A DNA stretch of 64,000 nucleotides from Flavobacteriales bacterium (lineage in GTDB: Bacteria > Bacteroidota > Bacteroidia > Flavobacteriales > Flavobacteriaceae), in assembly GCA_031387085.1 (NCBI GenBank), contig JANNCY010000141.1, positions 1,265 to 65,264 on the forward strand, written 5' to 3'. Below the pieces are notes generated by a model. The model saw only the letters and a list, made by a program, of their open reading frames with translations, made no database searches and had not been told where the DNA came from. Numbering within the stretch: position 1 is the stretch's first letter; each line of letters starts with the position of its first letter. This document shows positions 27,214 to 34,669 of the stretch, piece by piece. The translations under genes and the position numbers were made by a program.

Positions 27214-28059
27214 ATGTTTTCAACGATTAAAATAACGAAAGACTATATTCAGAGTTTGTACCAACCCATACAAAAAGACAGCCATAAAGGAATTCAAGGT
27301 CACGTTTTGTTAATTGGTGGGAGTTATGGAAAAATGGGCTCGGTTTGTTTATCAAGTAAAGCAGCTTTGCGAAGTGGTTGCGGATTGGTAACCGCTTTTA
27401 TTCCGGGATGTGGTTATGAAATTATACAGATTGCTGTTCCGGAAGCAATGGTCCTATCGGATAAAAATAACACTGTGATTACTAGAATACAATACGATTT
27501 TACACCGAATGCGATTGGTATCGGAATGGGAATGGGACAAAACTCGCAAACTCAAAAAGCGCTTTATGATTTTTTAAAAACGAATGCTGTTACATTGATT
27601 ATTGATGCTGATGCTTTAAACATTTTATCACAAAACAAAGAATGGATTTCATTACTAAGCAATAAGACAATTCTAACGCCTCACAAAAAAGAACTGGAAC
27701 GTTTAATTGGTACTTGGAAAAACGATGAAGAAAAGTTAGAAAAAGTAATCAAATTTTCCTCTGAAAATAATTTGATAATTGTCATTAAAGGCGCGCCAAC
27801 ATTACTAGTATATAAGAGTACAATCTATGAAAACACTACTGGAAATCAAGCCTTGGCCACTGCAGGAAGTGGCGATGTGTTAACCGGAATAATTACCAGT
27901 TTGGTAGCACAAAATTATGAACCTTTAAATGCGGCGATTTTGGGAGTGTACCTTCAAGGATTGACCGCCGATATCGCTTTGCCTGAAACAGGATATGAAT
28001 CGTTTATCGCTTCTGACATCATCAGTTATTTAGGAAAAGCTTTTTTAAGTCTACGCTAA
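27214..28059 (+). CDS. nnrD: ADP-dependent NAD(P)H-hydrate dehydratase (YjeF C-terminal domain only)
   Basis: [29 protein letters not shown] and [11 protein letters not shown] motifs. Confidence 0.9.
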
Positions 28060-29343
28060 ATTCAAAAAGTCTTTTAACTCGCTATACGTTTTAATTTTAG
28101 TGCTAATTTTATCCTTGTTCAAAACACTTTCAATCTGTTGTGGAATCGGTAATTTTATCTTCAATGTCGGCTCCACAATATCCAAAAATTTAATCGGATG
28201 AGCGGTTTCTAAAAAGACACCAATGGCATTTTGATGGTTTAGCATTTCACACTTTAATCCTAAATAACCAACGGTACCGTGAGGTTCAGCAATATAGTTG
28301 GAGTTGGTGTAAATATTTTGCATTTCAAAAAGCGTCTCTTCGTCGGTGAAACTATAAGAGGTAAAATCGTTGGAAAACGCATTCAAATCGTTATTATACA
28401 TTTCCTGAATGCGGATAAAATTACTCGGATTCCCAACATCCATTGCATTGGAGATGGTTGCAACAGAAGGCTTCGCTTCGTAAATTCCTTTTTCTAAAAA
28501 TTTCGGAACGGTATCATTGGCATTCGTCGATGCTACAAAATGCGCAATCGGCAAACCTAATTTTTTGGCAATCACTCCGGCGCAAATATTTCCGAAATTA
28601 CCACTCGGACAGGAAACGATTAAAGGCTTGTTGTGTTTTTTGAGTTCTTTATACGCAAAGAAAAAGTAGAACATTTGTGGCAACCATCGTGCGATATTTA
28701 TCGAATTGGCCGAAGTTAAGTTTTTGTGTTGTAAATCGGCATCAAGAAAAGCCATTTTAACCATGTCCTGGCAATCGTCGAAAACACCATCAACTTCGAG
28801 TGCTTTGATGTTTTGTCCCAAAGTAGTAAGCTGCCGCTCTTGAATGTCGCTCACTTTTCCGGAAGGATAAAGAATAATTACTTCTACGCCTTTAACTCCC
28901 AAAAAACCACTGGCTACAGCACCTCCGGTATCACCAGAAGTAGCTACTAAAACGGTATTTTTAACTTCTTTATCTTTGTTGAAATAGGCCAAACATCTTG
29001 ACATCCATCGGGCACCAACATCTTTGAAAGCCATAGTGGGTCCGTGAAATAATTCTAGCGAATAAATGTTGTCATCGACTTTCACTAACGGAAAATCGAA
29101 TGATAAGGTTGCTGCCAAAATTTGTCTTAGCTCTGCTTCCGGAATTTCAGTTCCAACGAATTGTTTGATGGCTTCAAAAGCAATTTCAACATTCAATAAA
29201 TTTTCGATGTTGTCAAAAAATGATTGTGGTAATTTAGAAATGGTTTCTGGAAAATACAAACCTCTATCAGGAGCTAATCCTTGAATAACGGCTTCTTGGA
29301 AAGAAACTTTGTGACTTTTATTATTTAAACTGTAATACTTCAT
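28051..29343 (-). CDS. thrC: Threonine synthase
   Basis: [38 protein letters not shown] and PSGNFGN motifs. Confidence 0.97.
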
Positions 29344-29374
29344 TTGTTATCTATTTACTTCAAACTTCTTACAT

Positions 29375-30295
29375 CTACATTACATTTGTTCCTTGCGGAT
29401 TTATTTTGGATACATGAATATCGAAAGCAATTCCGGTATTCAAATAACTTTCACTCATCGCATAAGCTACTTTTTTAGCTGCTTCTTGCCCTTTACACAA
29501 GGCGAAGATGGACGGTCCGGCACCCGATATTCCTGAGCCTAACGCTCCATTTACTAGTGCGGCATTTTTTACTTCATCAAAATTGGGAATTAACTGTTTC
29601 CGCAAAGGTTCAATAATTACGTCTTGCAAGGAACGTCCAATTAATTCGTAATCGCTGGTGTAAATTCCGGCGATCAATCCGCCTAAATTGCCCCATTGGG
29701 TGATGGCCGATTTTAAAGAAATCATTGGTGATAAAACGGCTCTAGAATCCGAAGTTTTGACTTCAATATGCGGATGCAAAACTACGGCATACAGTTCACT
29801 TGGACTGTCCATTCGAATGACTTCTAACGGATTGTAGCCACGAACTAAAGTAAATCCGCCTAATAGGCAAGGAGCGACGTTGTCTGCATGTTCACTACCA
29901 CTGGCAATGACTTCACCTTTCATGGCAAAATCGACCAATTCGTGCTTGGTAAATGGTTTTCCTAGTAATTCGTTGATTCCGAAAACAGCTCCGGCCGCAC
30001 TGGCTGACGAACTGCCAATACCACTTCCTGCTTTTATTTTTTTGTGGATTTCAATCTCAAATCCGTAATCGATATTTACCTTTTGTAGTAAAGCTAAAGC
30101 AGCAACTCCAGCTACATTCTTTTCAGTTTCTAACGGTAGATCGGCACCGGTAATCTTCGTTATCCGGATGCCTTTTTCTGAAGACTTCCGGATGATCATT
30201 TCATCACCGATAGTTTCGAGACATAATCCCATTACATCGAAACCGCAATTGAGATTGGCGATGGTAGCTGGACAGAATATTTTTATTTCGTTCAT
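29375..30295 (-). CDS. thrB: Homoserine kinase
   Basis: PATIANLNCGFD, GSGIGSSSAS, HADNVAP and ISGAGPS motifs. Confidence 0.97.
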   Translation of the reverse strand: MNEIKIFCPATIANLNCGFDVMGLCLETIGDEMIIRKSSEKGIRITKITGADLPLETEKNVAGVAALALLQKVNIDYGFEIEIHKKIKAGSGIGSSSASAAGAVFGINELLGKPFTKHELVDFAMKGEVIASGSEHADNVAPCLLGGFTLVRGYNPLEVIRMDSPSELYAVVLHPHIEVKTSDSRAVLSPMISLKSAITQWGNLGGLIAGIYTSDYELIGRSLQDVIIEPLRKQLIPNFDEVKNAALVNGALGSGISGAGPSIFALCKGQEAAKKVAYAMSESYLNTGIAFDIHVSKINPQGTNVM

Positions 30296-30319
30296 TTTTT
30301 GATTAGCTGAGTAATTGAA

Positions 30320-32767
30320 TTAAACGTTTCCGATTCGGATAACATCGGCGAAAATTCCAGAAGCAGTTACTGCTGCTCCGGCTCCAGCTCCTTTAATTAA
30401 CAAAGGTTGATCGACATATCGGTCGGTATAAAACTGAACGATATTATCTTTTCCTTCTAAATTGTAAAACGGACTGTCGGAAGGAATGAATTGCAATCCG
30501 ACGCTGGCTTTACCGTTTTCAAAAGAAGCTACAAATTTTAAGCGGCTTTCTTTTTGTTTGGCTTCCGCTAAAAGATTTTCAAAATGTGCAGCATGTTTGG
30601 TTAGCGATTTAAAAAAATCGTCATTACTGGTGGTATTCATACATGCGGAAGGAAGGAATGAATTATTGGTAATATCTTCAATTTCCATTTGATAACCGCT
30701 TTCACGAATTAAAATTAAAATCTTTCTGGCTACATCAACTCCACTTAAATCAATTTTCGGGTCAGGTTCTGTAAATCCTTGTACGCCAGCTTCTTTTACA
30801 ACATCGTGAAAGTTATAAGTATCGCTGAAATTATTAAAAATAAAATTCAAGCTTCCCGATAAAACGGCATTGATACGGTTGACTTTATCTCCAGACGCAA
30901 TAAGGTGTTTTAACGTGTCGATAATTGGCAATCCGGCACCAACATTGGTTTCAAATAAGAAAGGCGCATTGTACTTTCGTGATAACGATTTTAAGTTCTT
31001 GTAATTTTCATATTGTGAGGAACAGGCAATTTTATTACAGGTTACCACAGCAATATTTTGCTTTAGAAATTGATCGTAAATCGATGCAATAGCTTCGTTG
31101 GCCGTAATATCTACAAAAATACTATTCCGTAAATTAAGTCCTTTGGCACGGGCAATAAAATCGCTTACGTTGGCCGTTTCTCCATTATCTAATGATGTTT
31201 TCCAATCTTTTAACGACATTCCTTCTTCATCAAAAAACATTTTTCTGGAATTGGATAAGGCGATGACACGCAAATTAATTTTCAAGTTTTCTTTCAAGAA
31301 TTTCTTTTGCTGGTTGATTTGGTCGATGAATTTCTCACCAACATTTCCAACGCCCATAACGAATAAATTTAATTGTTTGGTATTGTCTTCAAAGAAACGT
31401 TCGTGTAATGTGTTTAGTGCTTTTTTGACATCTTTCTCATTAATAACAACAGAAATATTTCGTTCCGAAGCACCTTGTGCAATAGCGCGAATATTCACAT
31501 TATTCTTTCCTAAAGTGCTGAACATTTTCCCACTCAAACCTTGATGATTTTTCATGCTTTCGCCCACTAATGCTACTATACATAAGTCCTTCTCAACGAT
31601 GCAAGGATCTATTTTATTTTGTGCAATTTCGATTTCAAAAGTGGTGTCGATAGCGCTTTTTGCTTTATCGGCATCCTGATTTAGAATTCCGATGCAAATC
31701 GAATGCTCTGAAGAAGCTTGCGTAATGAAAATCACATTGATATTGTGCTGCGACAATACTTCGAATAAACGTTTCGAAGAACCTGCAACACCAATCATTC
31801 CCGAACCTTCTAATGTCAATAAAGAAATCCCATCAATATGCGTAATCCCTTTGATTGGATTAGTATGGGCTTCAGGAGTGCTGGATATTAAGGTACCATA
31901 CGCTTCAGGTTCAAACGTATTTTTTATCCAAATTGGAATATTGGCTTTCAGTACAGGTTGAATAGTCGGCGGATACAGTACTTTCGCTCCGAAATGCGAT
32001 AACTCCATCGCTTCTTGGTACGAAATCGATTCGATAGGTTGGGCTTGTTTGACAATTTTCGGATTAGCAGTGAACATTCCGTTGACGTCGGTCCAAATTT
32101 CTAAAGAAGATGCATTCACACCATTGGCAATAATCGCAGCCGTATAATCGGAACCGCCACGTCCTAGTGTTGTAGAATTCCCATCTACATCAGCAGCAAT
32201 AAATCCGGGTAATAAAACCACTTGCGATTTATTAGTGTCGAAGTAATCACCGATTAGCTTATTGGTGATTTCAAAATCGACTGCCGCTTTACCAAAATTA
32301 GAATTGGTTTTAATTAAATCGCGACTGTCTTTAAAATTGCTATTCGGAATGGTTTGTTGTAAAGCAGTTGCTATAATTTGCGACGACAACAATTCGCCAA
32401 ATCCTGCAATAGCATCGGCAGTTCTAGGCGATAGTTCTCCCAATAAATAACAACCATCCAATAAGGTTTGCAATTGGTTGATTTGACTGTTCACTTTTAT
32501 AAGCAATTGATTTTGATTGGCATTATCGACCAAACTCGCAATCGCTTCAAAATGTTTTTGCTTGAGCTCTTCGATGTTGTCTTTGTACGTCTCGTTTTTA
32601 GAAGCTGCATTTTTAGAAGCATTAATCAACATATCGGTCACGCCACTTAATGCCGAAACCACGACAGCTAATTTATTTTGAATTGCTTTTTGATTAACGA
32701 TTTCGAGAACCAATTTAATATTTTGTGCATTGGCAACCGAAGTTCCGCCAAATTTTAATACGATCAT
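30320..32767 (-). CDS. thrA: Bifunctional aspartate kinase / homoserine dehydrogenase I
   Basis: VLKFGGTSV, TLGRGGSDYTA, ACT domains, GVGNVG and FETNVGAGLP motifs. Confidence 0.97.
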   Translation of the reverse strand: MIVLKFGGTSVANAQNIKLVLEIVNQKAIQNKLAVVVSALSGVTDMLINASKNAASKNETYKDNIEELKQKHFEAIASLVDNANQNQLLIKVNSQINQLQTLLDGCYLLGELSPRTADAIAGFGELLSSQIIATALQQTIPNSNFKDSRDLIKTNSNFGKAAVDFEITNKLIGDYFDTNKSQVVLLPGFIAADVDGNSTTLGRGGSDYTAAIIANGVNASSLEIWTDVNGMFTANPKIVKQAQPIESISYQEAMELSHFGAKVLYPPTIQPVLKANIPIWIKNTFEPEAYGTLISSTPEAHTNPIKGITHIDGISLLTLEGSGMIGVAGSSKRLFEVLSQHNINVIFITQASSEHSICIGILNQDADKAKSAIDTTFEIEIAQNKIDPCIVEKDLCIVALVGESMKNHQGLSGKMFSTLGKNNVNIRAIAQGASERNISVVINEKDVKKALNTLHERFFEDNTKQLNLFVMGVGNVGEKFIDQINQQKKFLKENLKINLRVIALSNSRKMFFDEEGMSLKDWKTSLDNGETANVSDFIARAKGLNLRNSIFVDITANEAIASIYDQFLKQNIAVVTCNKIACSSQYENYKNLKSLSRKYNAPFLFETNVGAGLPIIDTLKHLIASGDKVNRINAVLSGSLNFIFNNFSDTYNFHDVVKEAGVQGFTEPDPKIDLSGVDVARKILILIRESGYQMEIEDITNNSFLPSACMNTTSNDDFFKSLTKHAAHFENLLAEAKQKESRLKFVASFENGKASVGLQFIPSDSPFYNLEGKDNIVQFYTDRYVDQPLLIKGAGAGAAVTASGIFADVIRIGNV

Positions 32768-32844
32768 TTTGTAAATTTTTATTGAATATCAAGATTTTTT
32801 CTCTTTCTTTCGAAAGAACATATAGAAGGGATTATATGTGAAAA

Positions 32845-32952
32845 TTATACCCCAAACGGGGTTGTAGTTGTAGTTGATGTAGTGCCAACGAAGGTTGCAA
32901 CCAAAGATTTGGTTGTGAATAAAGACAATATACTATTTGTTTTATTAAGCAT
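32845..32952 (-). CDS. Putative thr operon leader peptide, 35 aa
   Basis: MLNKTNSILSLFTTKSLVATFVGTTSTTTTTPFGV*; 11 Thr, 7 of them in the 8 codons 24-31; upstream of thrA; promoter TACTTTTG at 32966-32959. Confidence 0.8.
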   Translation of the reverse strand: MLNKTNSILSLFTTKSLVATFVGTTSTTTTTPFGV

Positions 32953-33163
32953 ACATTTCAAAAGTAGCATTTTTTAGTTAGTAAAAAAATAAACGCAGTA
33001 TTTTTGTGAATATCACAACATTATGCGGATAAAATAGTTGCTTTATTTTCATCTCTACCTTAATTACAGTCAAAATTTATAGAATTCTCAATAAAATAGC
33101 GGAAGAAATAGTTGCTTTTTAACAATTGTTTGCGGAATTTTGAAGACATTTTTTATCAATTCA

Positions 33164-34669
33164 ATGGAAACAATACATTATATAAGTTCAGAATTACTGC
33201 AATTAGAGACATTGCAAGAAATCATTTCACAAAATCAATCTATTGCACTTTCGGAAGAAGCTAAAATCAATATTCAGAAATGTCGTGATTATTTGGACAA
33301 AAAAATGGCGAATGATGGAGAACCGATTTACGGAATTAACACTGGATTTGGTTCACTGTGTAATGTTAAAATATCCAACGAAAACTTATCACAACTTCAG
33401 GAAAACTTAGTTAAATCGCATGCGTGCGGAACAGGTGATGTGGTTCCGAATGAAATTGTAAAAATCATGTTGTTGCTGAAAATCCAATCATTGAGTTACG
33501 GACATTCTGGCGTTCAATTACAAACCGTAGAACGATTGGTTGATTTTTATAATAATGATGTATTACCTATAATTTATACACAAGGTTCGTTAGGAGCAAG
33601 TGGCGATTTGGCTCCACTAGCCCATTTATCATTGCCACTTTTAGGAGAAGGAGAAGTTTTTTTCGAAGGTGAAAAAGTATATTCGTTTGTCGTATTGAAG
33701 AAGTTCAATTGGCAACCTATCGTACTGCAATCCAAAGAAGGTTTGGCTTTATTAAACGGAACACAGTTCATGAGTGCTTATGGATGTTATATCCTATTAA
33801 AAGCGATGAAATATTCGTATTTGGCGGATGTGATTTCTGCTATTTCATTGGAAGGATTTGATGGCAGAATAGAGCCATTTGATGAATTGATTCATTTTAT
33901 ACGACCGCATAAAGGACAAATAGTGACCGCGCAACGCATGAAGCAATTGTTGCAAGACAGTGAAATAATCGCGCAGAAGAAAGAACATGTTCAGGATCCG
34001 TATTCGTTTCGTTGTATTCCGCAAGTGCACGGCGCTTCGAAAGACACGATTGATTATGTGAAAAAAGTATTCAAAACCGAGATCAATTCGGTTACCGACA
34101 ATCCTAATATATTTAGAGAAAGTGATGTAATTATTTCAGGCGGGAATTTTCACGGACAGCCTTTGGCTTTAGCTTTGGATTTCTTAGGAATTGCATTGGC
34201 TGAATTGGGAAGTATCTCTGAAAGAAGAACCTACCAATTGATTTCCGGTTTGCGAGGTTTACCCGCATTCTTGGTTGATAATCCGGGATTGAATTCGGGG
34301 TTTATGATTCCGCAATACACTGCAGCCAGCATCGCAAGTCAGAACAAACAATTGGCTACTCCAGCGAGTATTGACAGTATTGTTTCGAGCAACGGACAAG
34401 AAGACCATGTGAGTATGGGTGCCAATGCGGCGACAAAGTGTTTGAAAATAATGGAAAATATTGAACGTATTTTGGCAATTGAATTAATGAATGCTTCTCA
34501 GGCGATTGAATTTAGAAAACCGTTACAATCAAGTAATTTTATTGAAATGTTTTTGAAATCGTATCGGGAAGTCGTTCCGTTTGTAAAAGAGGATCGCATT
34601 TTACATTATGATATTGAAAACTCGGTTGCGTTTTTGAATAGTTTTTTGATAGATGAGACGGTTTTATAA
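33164..34669 (+). CDS. hutH: Histidine ammonia-lyase
   Basis: YGINTGFG, GSLGASGDL (ASG MIO), KEGLALLNGT, QDPYSFRC and GGNFHGQP motifs. ATG 33164 is preferred. Confidence 0.97.
   Translation: METIHYISSELLQLETLQEIISQNQSIALSEEAKINIQKCRDYLDKKMANDGEPIYGINTGFGSLCNVKISNENLSQLQENLVKSHACGTGDVVPNEIVKIMLLLKIQSLSYGHSGVQLQTVERLVDFYNNDVLPIIYTQGSLGASGDLAPLAHLSLPLLGEGEVFFEGEKVYSFVVLKKFNWQPIVLQSKEGLALLNGTQFMSAYGCYILLKAMKYSYLADVISAISLEGFDGRIEPFDELIHFIRPHKGQIVTAQRMKQLLQDSEIIAQKKEHVQDPYSFRCIPQVHGASKDTIDYVKKVFKTEINSVTDNPNIFRESDVIISGGNFHGQPLALALDFLGIALAELGSISERRTYQLISGLRGLPAFLVDNPGLNSGFMIPQYTAASIASQNKQLATPASIDSIVSSNGQEDHVSMGANAATKCLKIMENIERILAIELMNASQAIEFRKPLQSSNFIEMFLKSYREVVPFVKEDRILHYDIENSVAFLNSFLIDETVL

What the first reader, a model, noticed from the sequence alone, without database searches (positions are those of the whole stretch)
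32795..32966. Uncalled Thr-rich leader peptide and an atypical attenuator upstream of thrABC
Seen: promoter TACTTTTG (32966-32959) with ATG only 7 nt downstream, so the transcript is nearly leaderless. The 35-codon ORF ends GTTSTTTTTPFGV*. Hairpins lie inside the ORF: CAACCAAA-TC-TTTGGTTG, CAAC-CTTC-GTTG and ACCCC-GTTT-GGGGT followed by ATAATTTT. After the stop come a C-rich, G-poor tract and TTCTTTCGAAAGAA. There is no Ile run, unlike E. coli thrL. Established: ribosome-mediated attenuation by cognate-codon leaders. Inference: Thr-sensing control in which a ribosome stalled on the Thr run masks the CCCC/GGGG stem, or Rho-dependent control; either geometry differs from enterobacterial thrL.
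Basis: partly seen in the sequence, partly recalled or inferred. Interest (0 to 1): 0.65.

Follow-up and report, generated by a model that had tools for sequence, protein, structure and literature searches.

The report
Atypical threonine leader peptide before thrABC
A tiny, uncalled, threonine-codon-rich gene at the very start of the thrABC transcript of this Flavobacterium is real and conserved across most of its family; it almost certainly lets ribosome speed report threonine supply, but the RNA behind it is not the textbook terminator switch.

Summary
On the minus strand a Bacteroidetes -7 box (32966-32959) is followed 6 nt later by a 35-codon ORF (32952-32845). Seven of the eight codons before its Pro codon are Thr. 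The ORF ends inside or next to the hairpin ACCCC-GUUU-GGGGU (P2), 78 nt before thrA.

This is a conserved family. It is present in 72 of 80 closest thrA loci and in at least 50 of 60 randomly drawn Flavobacteriaceae genera. It also occurs in other Bacteroidota families. The ORF shows a coding signature: 86 of 87 indels are multiples of 3.

Thr/Ile codons pile up at positions -1 to -3, where a stalled ribosome must cover the 5' arm of P2. The stop codon always lies in or within 2 codons after P2.

Rfam has no match, and I found no description in the literature I could search.

The same genome's trp and his leaders have longer 5' UTRs and strong terminators. The thr leader has only a 1-2 nt 5' UTR and no canonical terminator. 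P2 looks like a weak terminator only within Flavobacterium.

My best reading is that a stalled ribosome keeps P2 from forming, or shields C-rich RNA, and so prevents factor-dependent (probably Rho) premature termination. The output step is inferred, not shown.

The parts
33002..33013 (-). Conserved upstream promoter motif ATATTCACAAAA. It may be a regulator site and is not part of the RNA element.
   Evidence: The motif A[AT]ATTC[AG][CT]AAAA lies 47-48 nt upstream of the -7 box in 47 of 100 Flavobacterium thr-leader promoters.
32959..32966 (-). Bacteroidetes -7 promoter element TACTTTTG
   Evidence: a TAnn[T/A]TTG box is found in 100 of 105 relatives. The spacing to the ATG is 6 nt in 51 of them and 4-11 nt in 85. 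In F. johnsoniae the TSS lies 4-5 nt after this element (PMC6847099).
32845..32952 (-). Leader ORF of 35 codons plus stop (MLNKTNSILSLFTTKSLVATFVGTTSTTTTTPFGV*). The predicted 5' UTR is 1-2 nt.
   Evidence: Coding signature. Conservation.
32898..32915 (-). P1 hairpin inside the ORF (CAACCAAA-TC-TTTGGTTG)
   Evidence: All 6 of its pairs show compensatory changes and 89.7% of cells are paired. The P1 region has a mean z of -0.72 over 69 genera.
32860..32883 (-). Regulatory codon run: ACT ACA TCA ACT ACA ACT ACA ACC (T T S T T T T T)
   Evidence: Thr/Ile positional profile. Thr makes up 29.6% of leader codons, and ACG is used 4.3% of the time against 15.1% genome-wide.
32849..32862 (-). P2 hairpin ACCCC-GTTT-GGGGT. 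Its 5' arm is the last Thr codon plus the Pro codon. The stop codon follows 1 codon after the 3' arm.
   Evidence: Across 79 genera the stem is 4-9 bp with mean dG -8.6, the outer pairs covary, and one genome has the arms swapped. The stop always lies 5-20 nt after the first C.
32841..32848 (-). ATAATTTT, the A/U-rich tail after P2. It contains the TAA stop.
   Evidence: The U run is conserved in Flavobacterium but absent in most other genera.
32829..32839 (-). E box ACATATAATCC: a conserved (C)AUAU motif plus C-rich motif 6-10 nt after P2
   Evidence: It is invariant or nearly so in 73 sequences. It is kept as (C/U)AUAU..(U)CC in other genera and families. In this genome it occurs only here, apart from one chance hit.
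32818..32839 (-). Local helix ACATATA / TATATGT that pairs the E box with the segment before P3
   Evidence: Predicted. The partner 'ATG' is conserved in the close clade. Covariation was not testable because the E box is invariant.
32802..32818 (-). P3 hairpin (TTCTTTC-GA-AAGAAAG), followed by an A-rich tract rather than a U-rich one
   Evidence: 4 of 5 pairs show compensatory changes and 94.8% of cells are paired. The P3 region has a mean z of -1.12 over 69 genera.
28051..32767 (-). Regulated operon thrA (30320-32767), thrB (29375-30295), thrC (28051-29343)
   Evidence: NCBIfam hits NF006959 (1044 bits), NF002288 (403 bits) and TIGR00260 (277 bits).

Best explanation
This is a ribosome-mediated sensor of charged tRNA-Thr (tRNA-Thr plus tRNA-Ile in many relatives) that controls thrABC.

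Transcription starts 1-2 nt before the leader AUG, so a ribosome loads on the nascent 5' end. The last sense codons of the leader are Thr codons, and they run into the 5' arm of the small G-C hairpin P2. The stop codon lies in or just after P2.

When Thr-tRNA is scarce, the ribosome dwells on the last three to four Thr codons. It then covers the CCCC arm, so P2 cannot form, and the ribosome stays parked on the C-rich leader RNA. When Thr-tRNA is plentiful, the ribosome runs to the stop and leaves. P2 then forms, and the C-rich, G-poor leader and E-box RNA are left bare.

I propose that the bare state leads to premature termination before or early in thrA. The agent would be a factor-dependent route, most likely Rho, with P2 and P3 acting as pause or spacer hairpins between C-rich segments. 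In Flavobacterium the weak P2 plus U-run may help. The parked ribosome would prevent this termination.

Shown here: the ORF, its coding constraint, the codon placement, the conserved hairpins, and the lack of a canonical terminator.
Inferred: translation of the ORF, the sign of regulation, and the Rho step.
For: Leader ORF and its coding constraint:
- Sequence and ORFs.
- 86 of 87 indels in the ORF are multiples of 3, and third codon positions are the most variable.
- Thr makes up 29.6% of leader codons.

Conservation:
- 72 of 80 closest thrA loci carry it.
- 17 of 22 pattern hits across 250 genera lie upstream of thrA.
- At least 50 of 60 random genera carry it.
- Other families in the class and phylum carry it too.

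Codon placement:
- Thr/Ile occupy 100%, 90%, 75% and 51% of positions -1 to -4. Stalls at these positions put the 5' arm of P2 inside the ribosome.

P2 is a conserved structure:
- The stop codon lies in its loop or within 2 codons after it.
- The outer pairs covary, and one genome has the arms swapped.
- P1 and P3 covary.

No canonical terminator:
- P2 qualifies by lenient criteria in 64 of 88 Flavobacterium sequences but only 9 of 67 other genera.
- Any other terminator-like site before thrA is found in 7 of 88 and 1 of 67.
- The trp and his leaders of the same genome have 9-bp G-C stems or strong stems followed by U7 or U6.

Rut-like composition:
- After P2, C is 16.7% and G is 8.2%, and C exceeds G in 95% of 155 sequences.
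- YC dinucleotides number 3.76 per 30 nt against 1.92 in background.
- The best 78-nt window of the leader (C 22, G 8) is in the top 0.9% of genome windows.
- Rho is encoded in the genome (640 bits).

Precedents exist for uORF-controlled Rho attenuation: tnaC, speFL, cruR, mgtL (PMC12360218).

Near-leaderless start:
- Spacing data.
- TSS 4-5 nt after the -7 element in F. johnsoniae.
Against: - There are no expression data.
- The C>G and YC excess is only about 1 SD above background upstream regions. This window's own post-P2 skew is at the 80th percentile.
- Thr codons (ACN) supply C but few YC dinucleotides.
- The strict conservation of the E box (ACAUAUAAUCC) is more than a rut site should need and remains unexplained.
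- Rho dependence in Flavobacteriia has not been shown for any attenuator that I could find.
- The roles of P1 and P3 are guesses.
Confidence: 0.45

Rival explanations
1. P2 plus the AUAAUUUU tail is a weak intrinsic terminator, and a ribosome stalled on the last Thr codons masks its 5' arm directly. No antiterminator helix is needed.
For: - P2 is the only terminator-like site in the 700-nt region.
- It meets lenient terminator criteria in 64 of 88 Flavobacterium leaders.
- Thr/Ile codons concentrate where a stalled ribosome covers the 5' arm.
- In some other families P2 is 7-8 bp and is followed by ACUUUUU.
Against: - Sites this weak occur at chance frequency (14 found against 14.3 expected per 20 kb).
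- The U run is missing in 58 of 67 other genera that keep everything else.
- Geometry argues against it. A ribosome following the polymerase under Thr sufficiency would also cover the 5' arm at the moment of decision. That leaves no OFF state, or regulation of the wrong sign, unless the polymerase pauses for long after P2 (inference from known footprint sizes).
- The trp and his attenuators of the same genome use far stronger terminators.
Confidence: 0.2
2. A classical three-segment switch. CCCC:GGGG (1:2) competes with GGGGUAUA:UAUAAUCC (2:3). That in turn competes with the E-box helix ACAUAUA:UAUAUGU (3:4). The 3:4 helix followed by UCUUUC would be the negative element.
For: - Constrained folds pair the freed GGGG with the E box when the CCCC arm is masked.
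- Unpaired probability of positions +12 to +21 drops by 0.1-0.19.
- In this window 2:3 and 3:4 share the AUAUA bases.
Against: - GGGG:E-box duplexes are no more stable than with shuffled targets (mean z = +0.33 over 72 genera).
- P3 and the thrA start are unaffected by masking.
- The genome with swapped P2 arms keeps the E box although its freed arm (CCCGU) cannot pair with it.
- Most Flavobacteriaceae genera have no G-rich partner or U tract after the E box.
Confidence: 0.1
3. Post-transcriptional control. The A/U-rich single-stranded E box between two hairpins is an endonuclease site (RNase E/G or Y type). A parked ribosome protects it and so stabilises thrABC mRNA.
For: - The E box is A/U-rich (80% A+U in the first 14 nt after P2).
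- It is flanked by conserved hairpins.
- It is conserved beyond what pairing explains.
- A mechanism with a long time window avoids the sign problem of co-transcriptional models (inference).
Against: - No cleavage data exist.
- Cleavage would leave P3 near the new 5' end, and that usually stabilises rather than destabilises the downstream RNA (general knowledge).
- No known consensus site was tested.
Confidence: 0.1
4. The ORF is not a sensor. The Thr-codon run and hairpins are an RNA element or chance features, and thrABC is controlled elsewhere, for example by a protein at the conserved upstream motif.
For: - A conserved motif lies 47-48 nt upstream of the -7 box.
- It persists in species that lost the leader.
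- Several Flavobacterium species lack the leader altogether.
Against: - Reading-frame constraint holds in 86 of 87 indels.
- Cognate codon enrichment sits at fixed positions across 68 genera.
- The start codon lies at a fixed distance from the promoter.
- The element is tied exclusively to thrA.
Confidence: 0.05

Closest known systems
Enterobacterial thr operon leader thrL (Rfam Thr_leader, RF00506)
   Same: - A short ORF rich in Thr codons (Thr plus Ile in many relatives) directly upstream of thrABC.
- The expected logic is negative feedback through ribosome speed.
   Different: - No sequence or structure match, even at E <= 10.
- The 5' UTR is only 1-2 nt.
- The regulatory codons abut and enter the first conserved hairpin after them.
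- The stop codon lies in or next to that hairpin.
- There is no conserved antiterminator and no strong terminator.
Bacteroid-trp leader (Rfam RF01692) and the His leader of the same genome
   Same: - Leader-peptide elements upstream of amino-acid biosynthesis operons in the same organism.
- Driven by the same type of promoter.
   Different: - Both have 17-18 nt 5' UTRs.
- Both end in canonical terminators: GGGCUUGUC/GACAAGCCC plus U7 for trp, and CCGUCU/AGACGG plus U6 for his.
- The thr leader has neither feature.
uORF-controlled Rho-dependent attenuators (tnaC, speFL, cruR, mgtL/corL; review PMC12360218)
   Same: - A ribosome held on a short uORF shields or hides C-rich RNA next to the uORF end.
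- No intrinsic terminator is needed.
- A hairpin can sit between C-rich segments.
   Different: - Those systems sense a small molecule or ion through the nascent peptide or through Pro codons.
- Here the signal would be hungry cognate codons of a biosynthetic operon.
- Rho dependence is not shown here.
Leaderless polycysteine sORF attenuators of mycobacteria
   Same: - A leaderless short ORF with a run of cognate codons controls downstream biosynthesis genes.
- There is no textbook terminator switch.
   Different: - A different phylum and a different amino acid.
- The downstream RNA architecture is unrelated.
- The comparison rests on memory only.
pyrBI / pyrE attenuators of E. coli (general knowledge)
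   Same: The leader ORF runs into a hairpin, so ribosome position decides directly whether the hairpin forms.
   Different: - There, a closely following ribosome prevents termination, and the signal is polymerase speed (UTP).
- Applied here, that logic would give the wrong sign for threonine feedback.

Membership tests
Rfam Thr_leader (RF00506) | Match to the covariance model | tested here: not met
   No RF00506 hit on 32300-33400, even at E <= 10 with permissive filters.
Rfam Thr_leader (RF00506) | Leader ORF with interspersed Thr and Ile codons upstream of thrA | tested here: met
   In this window 7 of the 8 codons before Pro are Thr and there is no Ile run. Relatives mix Thr and Ile, for example ...TTISTTTITTP* and ...IIISTIITPFGV*.
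Rfam Thr_leader (RF00506) | Strong terminator hairpin plus U tract downstream of the stop, with a competing antiterminator | tested here: not met
   P2 is the only terminator-like site and is no better than chance sites. No other such site lies before thrA in 81 of 88 Flavobacterium and 66 of 67 other-genus sequences. The 3' arm of P1 varies while the CCCC arm is invariant, so no conserved 2:3 pairing exists.
Ribosome-mediated leader-peptide attenuators (generic class) | Short ORF enriched in codons cognate to the operon's end product, under reading-frame constraint | tested here: met
   Thr makes up 29.6% of codons. 86 of 87 indels are multiples of 3 and third positions are the most variable.
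Ribosome-mediated leader-peptide attenuators (generic class) | Ribosome position changes a conserved RNA structure | tested here: met
   The 5' arm of P2 is made of the last sense codons, and the stop lies in or within 2 codons after P2 in all 155 leaders. This is geometry only; no probing data exist.
Ribosome-mediated leader-peptide attenuators (generic class) | Translation of the ORF and amino-acid-dependent read-through | not testable with these tools
I found no published data for this leader.
uORF-dependent Rho attenuators | C-rich, G-poor, poorly structured RNA (rut) at or next to the uORF | tested here: inconclusive
   C is 16.7% against G 8.2% after P2, and C exceeds G in 95% of leaders. 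The skew is only about 1 SD above background. YC dinucleotides number 3.76 against 1.92 per 30 nt. The best 78-nt window is in the top 0.9% of the genome.
uORF-dependent Rho attenuators | Rho present; termination sensitive to Rho inhibition | tested here: inconclusive
   The rho gene is found (TIGR00767, 640 bits). Sensitivity to Rho inhibition is not testable here.
Leaderless mRNAs | Transcription start at or within a few nt of the AUG | tested here: inconclusive
   6 nt lie between the -7 box and the ATG here and in 51 of 100 relatives. In F. johnsoniae the TSS is 4-5 nt after the box. That predicts a 1-2 nt 5' UTR, but the TSS has not been mapped.

The most novel reading that the evidence does not exclude
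Flavobacteriaceae and several other Bacteroidota families share an undescribed class of amino-acid attenuator. It consists of a near-leaderless Thr/Ile leader ORF whose last codons and stop codon are built into a small hairpin. It controls thrABC without an intrinsic terminator: a starved, parked ribosome blocks Rho (or another factor) from acting on the C-rich leader. If so, it would be the first biosynthetic-operon leader peptide to work by ribosome shielding of a factor-dependent terminator. It would also offer an entry point to Rho biology in Bacteroidota.
Probability: 0.3. Interest if true: 0.75.

Novelty: new variant of a known kind. Interest (0 to 1): 0.6.

Why it matters
- Leader-peptide attenuation is a textbook mechanism, but it is defined almost entirely from Proteobacteria.
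- This leader is conserved across at least 83% of sampled Flavobacteriaceae genera and beyond.
- It is absent from Rfam 15 and from the literature I could search. It breaks two textbook rules: it has almost no 5' UTR, and it lacks a terminator/antiterminator pair.
- The same genome keeps textbook trp and his attenuators, so the difference is specific to thr and not a quirk of the organism.
- The leader is a well-defined candidate for a new RNA family.
- It also makes one question directly testable in F. johnsoniae: how does a ribosome signal to RNA polymerase in bacteria that ignore Shine-Dalgarno sequences, and does Rho carry that signal?

Tried and rejected
1. An Rfam scan of the region at E <= 10 found nothing relevant.
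2. An alifold helix UGUUG:CAACA into the Thr run is only 80% paired and has almost no covariation.
3. A classical antiterminator between the 3' arm of P1 and the CCCC arm is rejected. P1 covaries freely while the CCCC arm is invariant.
4. A GGGG:E-box (2:3) switch is no better than shuffled controls. It is also incompatible with the genome that has swapped P2 arms.
5. Sequestration of the thrA start is rejected. Masking the 5' arm of P2 leaves unpaired probabilities around the thrA AUG unchanged, and the distance from P3 to thrA varies from about 40 to 130 nt.
6. A second small ORF starting at the conserved AUG before P3 is rejected. It is absent in the other Flavobacterium clade and in other genera. 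The AUG is better explained by pairing with the CAU of the E box.
7. The E box as a shared expression platform is rejected. It occurs only here in the genome, and the P2 plus E-box pattern hits only thrA leaders in 250 genera.
9. The supplements of the F. johnsoniae and F. psychrophilum transcriptome papers hold nothing on a thr leader.

Full report
**What is there**

All features lie on the minus strand.
- A Bacteroidetes -7 promoter element TACTTTTG sits at 32966-32959.
- After 6 nt comes an ATG at 32952. It opens a 35-codon ORF, MLNKTNSILSLFTTKSLVATFVGTTSTTTTTPFGV*, with its stop at 32847-32845.
- The 41-aa ORF listed mechanically starts at an ATG that overlaps the -7 box, so it is not the real start.
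- Downstream lie thrA (aspartokinase-homoserine dehydrogenase I, NF006959, 1044 bits), thrB and thrC. hutH is transcribed divergently.
- The 216-nt leader folds better than dinucleotide shuffles (z = -2.8).
- No Rfam 15 family matches, including Thr_leader, even at E <= 10.

**The ORF is real and conserved**

The genus is Flavobacterium, judging from the record titles.
- Among same-genus thrA orthologues, 15 of 17 carry a Thr-rich or Thr/Ile-rich ORF that ends over a CCCC-N3-5-GGGG hairpin.
- 72 of the 80 closest thrA loci carry it.
- A pattern for the hairpin plus the following ACATAT hit 22 of 250 genera of the family, against 5 for the reversed control. Of these hits, 17 lie 65-185 nt upstream of thrA.
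- I then fetched the thrA upstream region from 60 genera without regard to the pattern. At least 50 of them have the leader.
- It also occurs in other families of the class and phylum.

An alignment of 73 sequences shows a coding signature.
- 86 of 87 internal gaps in the ORF part are multiples of three, against 13 of 284 downstream.
- Third codon positions are the most variable.
- Thr makes up 29.6% of leader codons. ACG is avoided: 4.3% against 15.1% genome-wide.
- This window has no Ile run, but many relatives interleave Ile with Thr, as E. coli thrL does.

**Architecture, 5' to 3'**

- **Near-leaderless start.** The -7 box lies 6 nt before the ATG in 51 of 100 relatives, and 4-11 nt before it in 85. 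In F. johnsoniae the transcription start lies 4-5 nt after this element, and 87% of mRNAs have leaders longer than 10 nt (PMC6847099). The leader ORF should therefore have a 1-2 nt 5' UTR. Such short UTRs are rare in this phylum: 5.5% of mRNAs are leaderless in F. psychrophilum, and 3.7% of 5' UTRs are shorter than 10 nt in B. thetaiotaomicron.
- **P1.** This hairpin lies inside the ORF, and all six of its pairs show compensatory changes.
- **The Thr/Ile run.**
- **P2.** Its 5' arm consists of the last Thr codon plus the Pro (or Leu) codon.
  - Across 79 genera the stem is 4-9 bp with a mean dG of -8.6 kcal/mol.
  - The inner three pairs are C-G and the outer pairs covary.
  - One genome has the arms swapped (ACGGG-GUAA-CCCGU).
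  - The stop codon is always in the loop, fused to the 3' arm (GGGGUAA), or one to two codons later.
- **Spacer and E box.** An A/U-rich spacer is followed by the E box (ACAUAUAAUCC here; (C/U)AUAU..UCC elsewhere), which begins 6-10 nt after P2.
- **P3.** This hairpin has compensatory changes in 4 of 5 pairs. It is followed by A-rich, not U-rich, sequence.
- **thrA.** A variable A-rich stretch then leads to thrA.

**Where the hungry codons sit**

Positions are counted back from the Pro/Leu codon in 68 genera. Thr/Ile occupy 100%, 90%, 75% and 51% of positions -1 to -4. They occupy 62-65% of positions -5 to -7, and the share falls to 10-41% further upstream.

Standard ribosome footprints reach about 10-12 nt beyond the first base of the A-site codon. 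This figure is established knowledge, not measured here. On that basis a stall at positions -1 to -4 places the 5' arm of P2 inside the ribosome.

**What the output is not**

- **No canonical terminator.**
  - Under the same lenient criteria as the scanning tool, P2 itself qualifies in 64 of 88 Flavobacterium leaders but in only 9 of 67 leaders from other genera.
  - Any other terminator-like site between P2 and thrA is found in 7 of 88 and 1 of 67.
  - In this window, sites as weak as P2 occur at the chance rate (14 found against 14.3 expected in 20 kb).
  - By contrast, the same genome has a Bacteroid-trp leader (RF01692, 70 bits; MNNTLNNTWWWNSLRQTS*; 17-nt 5' UTR) ending in GGGCUUGUC-AAUCAC-GACAAGCCC plus U7.
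  - It also has a His leader (MNTISTQLHHHHSCKQAS*) with a strong terminator before hisG.
  - This organism therefore does use textbook attenuators, and the thr leader is a different design.
- **No conserved antiterminator upstream.** The 3' arm of P1 varies freely while the CCCC arm never does.
- **A downstream 2:3 pairing (GGGG with the E box) is not supported.**
  - It appears in constrained folds.
  - It is no more stable than with shuffled targets (mean z = +0.33).
  - It cannot form in the arm-swapped genome, which nevertheless keeps the E box.
- **The thrA start is not sequestered.** Masking the arm changes neither P3 nor the accessibility of the thrA start.

**Why simple masking of a P2 terminator is unsatisfying**

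This section is inference. A ribosome translating normally also melts P2, and it cannot be further back than a starved ribosome. If P2 acted on the polymerase only at the instant the hairpin emerges, there would be no OFF state. Alternatively the sign would be that of pyrBI, with more read-through when translation is fast. That is the wrong direction for threonine feedback.

What differs between the two states is duration. The ribosome either passes transiently and is released at the stop, or it stays parked. A mechanism with a longer time window fits this difference better.

**Best-supported mechanism**

A parked ribosome on the last Thr codons keeps P2 open and occupies the C-rich leader. 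This prevents factor-dependent premature termination, most likely by Rho. After normal translation the leader is bare, P2 re-forms, and Rho can load on the C-rich, G-poor segments that flank the hairpins.

Supporting but not decisive evidence:
- After P2, C is 16.7% and G is 8.2%, and C exceeds G in 95% of 155 leaders. Background upstream regions have a skew of 0.08 +/- 0.24, against 0.34 here.
- YC dinucleotides number 3.76 per 30 nt against 1.92 in background.
- The best 78-nt window of this leader (C 22, G 8) is in the top 0.9% of genome windows.
- rho is present.
- uORF-controlled Rho attenuators are well documented elsewhere: tnaC, speFL, cruR with a rut inside the uORF, and mgtL (PMC12360218).
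- In Flavobacterium, including this window, the U run after P2 may add a weak intrinsic component.

I put 0.85 on the sensing half and about 0.45 on the whole statement including the output.

**What remains unexplained**

- The near-invariance of the E box is more than either a rut site or the tested pairings require.
- Its fixed position 6-10 nt after P2 would suit a hairpin-dependent pause or release site. I could not test that.
- The roles of P1 and P3 are unknown.

**Known or new**

- Leader-peptide attenuation in flavobacteria has been noted for ilvE, hisG, trp and aromatic operons of F. psychrophilum (PMC9723704 and its supplement). Bacteroid-trp is in Rfam.
- I found no description of a thr leader in Bacteroidota.
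- From memory, Vitreschak et al. 2004 reported some attenuators in Bacteroidetes/Chlorobi. I could not read that paper, so prior mention cannot be excluded.
- Earlier notes of this scan describe the same kind of leader in another Flavobacterium, in Chitinophagales and in Cytophagales, also without a classic terminator. These are unchecked AI notes. I re-derived the family-wide and cross-family distribution independently here.

**Limits**

- All statements on the TSS, translation, sign of regulation and Rho are inference.

Noticed in passing
window 33002-33013 (-): The motif A[AT]ATTC[AG][CT]AAAA lies exactly 47-48 nt upstream of the -7 box in 47 of 100 Flavobacterium thr-leader promoters. It also stands upstream of thrA in species that lost the leader. 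It may be a regulator binding site.
   Followed up: partly
G000:C102:9229-9354 (-) = L201:1501-1626 (-); G000:C177 + strand, from 1248: The same genome carries a Bacteroid-trp leader (RF01692, 70 bits) and a His leader (MNTISTQLHHHHSCKQAS*). Both have 17-18 nt 5' UTRs and strong canonical terminators.
   Followed up: yes
L208 (G396:C1:54757-55149): One same-class genome has the P2 arms swapped (ACGGG-GUAA-CCCGU). The stop codon is still in the loop and the E box (CCAUAUUCCC) is kept. This acts as a natural compensatory mutant of the hairpin.
   Followed up: partly
L229 (G293:C17:24228-24617); L212 (G305:C96:924590-924982): Other Bacteroidota families have Thr-run leaders (for example MLNIITTTTVTTTTTTTQMTG*) followed by canonical terminators with U7 tracts. 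Both designs therefore coexist in the phylum.
   Followed up: no
L063, L119; L004/L099, L017, L078, L085, L086, L097, L100: Some close Flavobacterium relatives have decayed leaders: the Thr run and the CCCC arm are lost while remnants of the E box and P3 are kept. Others have no leader at all upstream of an intact thrA.
   Followed up: no
L059 (CALPIE020000158.1) and L114 (CALQCV020000003.1): Records titled 'MAG: Bifidobacterium breve' and 'MAG: Candidatus Nitrotoga sp. CP45' carry a Flavobacterium-type thrA (87% and 76% identity) with this leader. The bins are probably mislabelled or contaminated.
   Followed up: no
L022-L026 and unlisted matches: Many relatives have a second aspartokinase-homoserine dehydrogenase paralogue (about 40% identity, about 810 aa). 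It lies directly after a gene ending ...HGHDAFLIEF..., which suggests a methionine-pathway context. It lacks the thr leader.
   Followed up: no
window 32818-32789 (-): A 10-codon ORF (AUG UUC UUU CGA AAG AAA GAG AAA AAA UCU UGA) overlaps P3. It is not conserved outside the closest clade and is probably a by-product of the E-box helix.
   Followed up: partly
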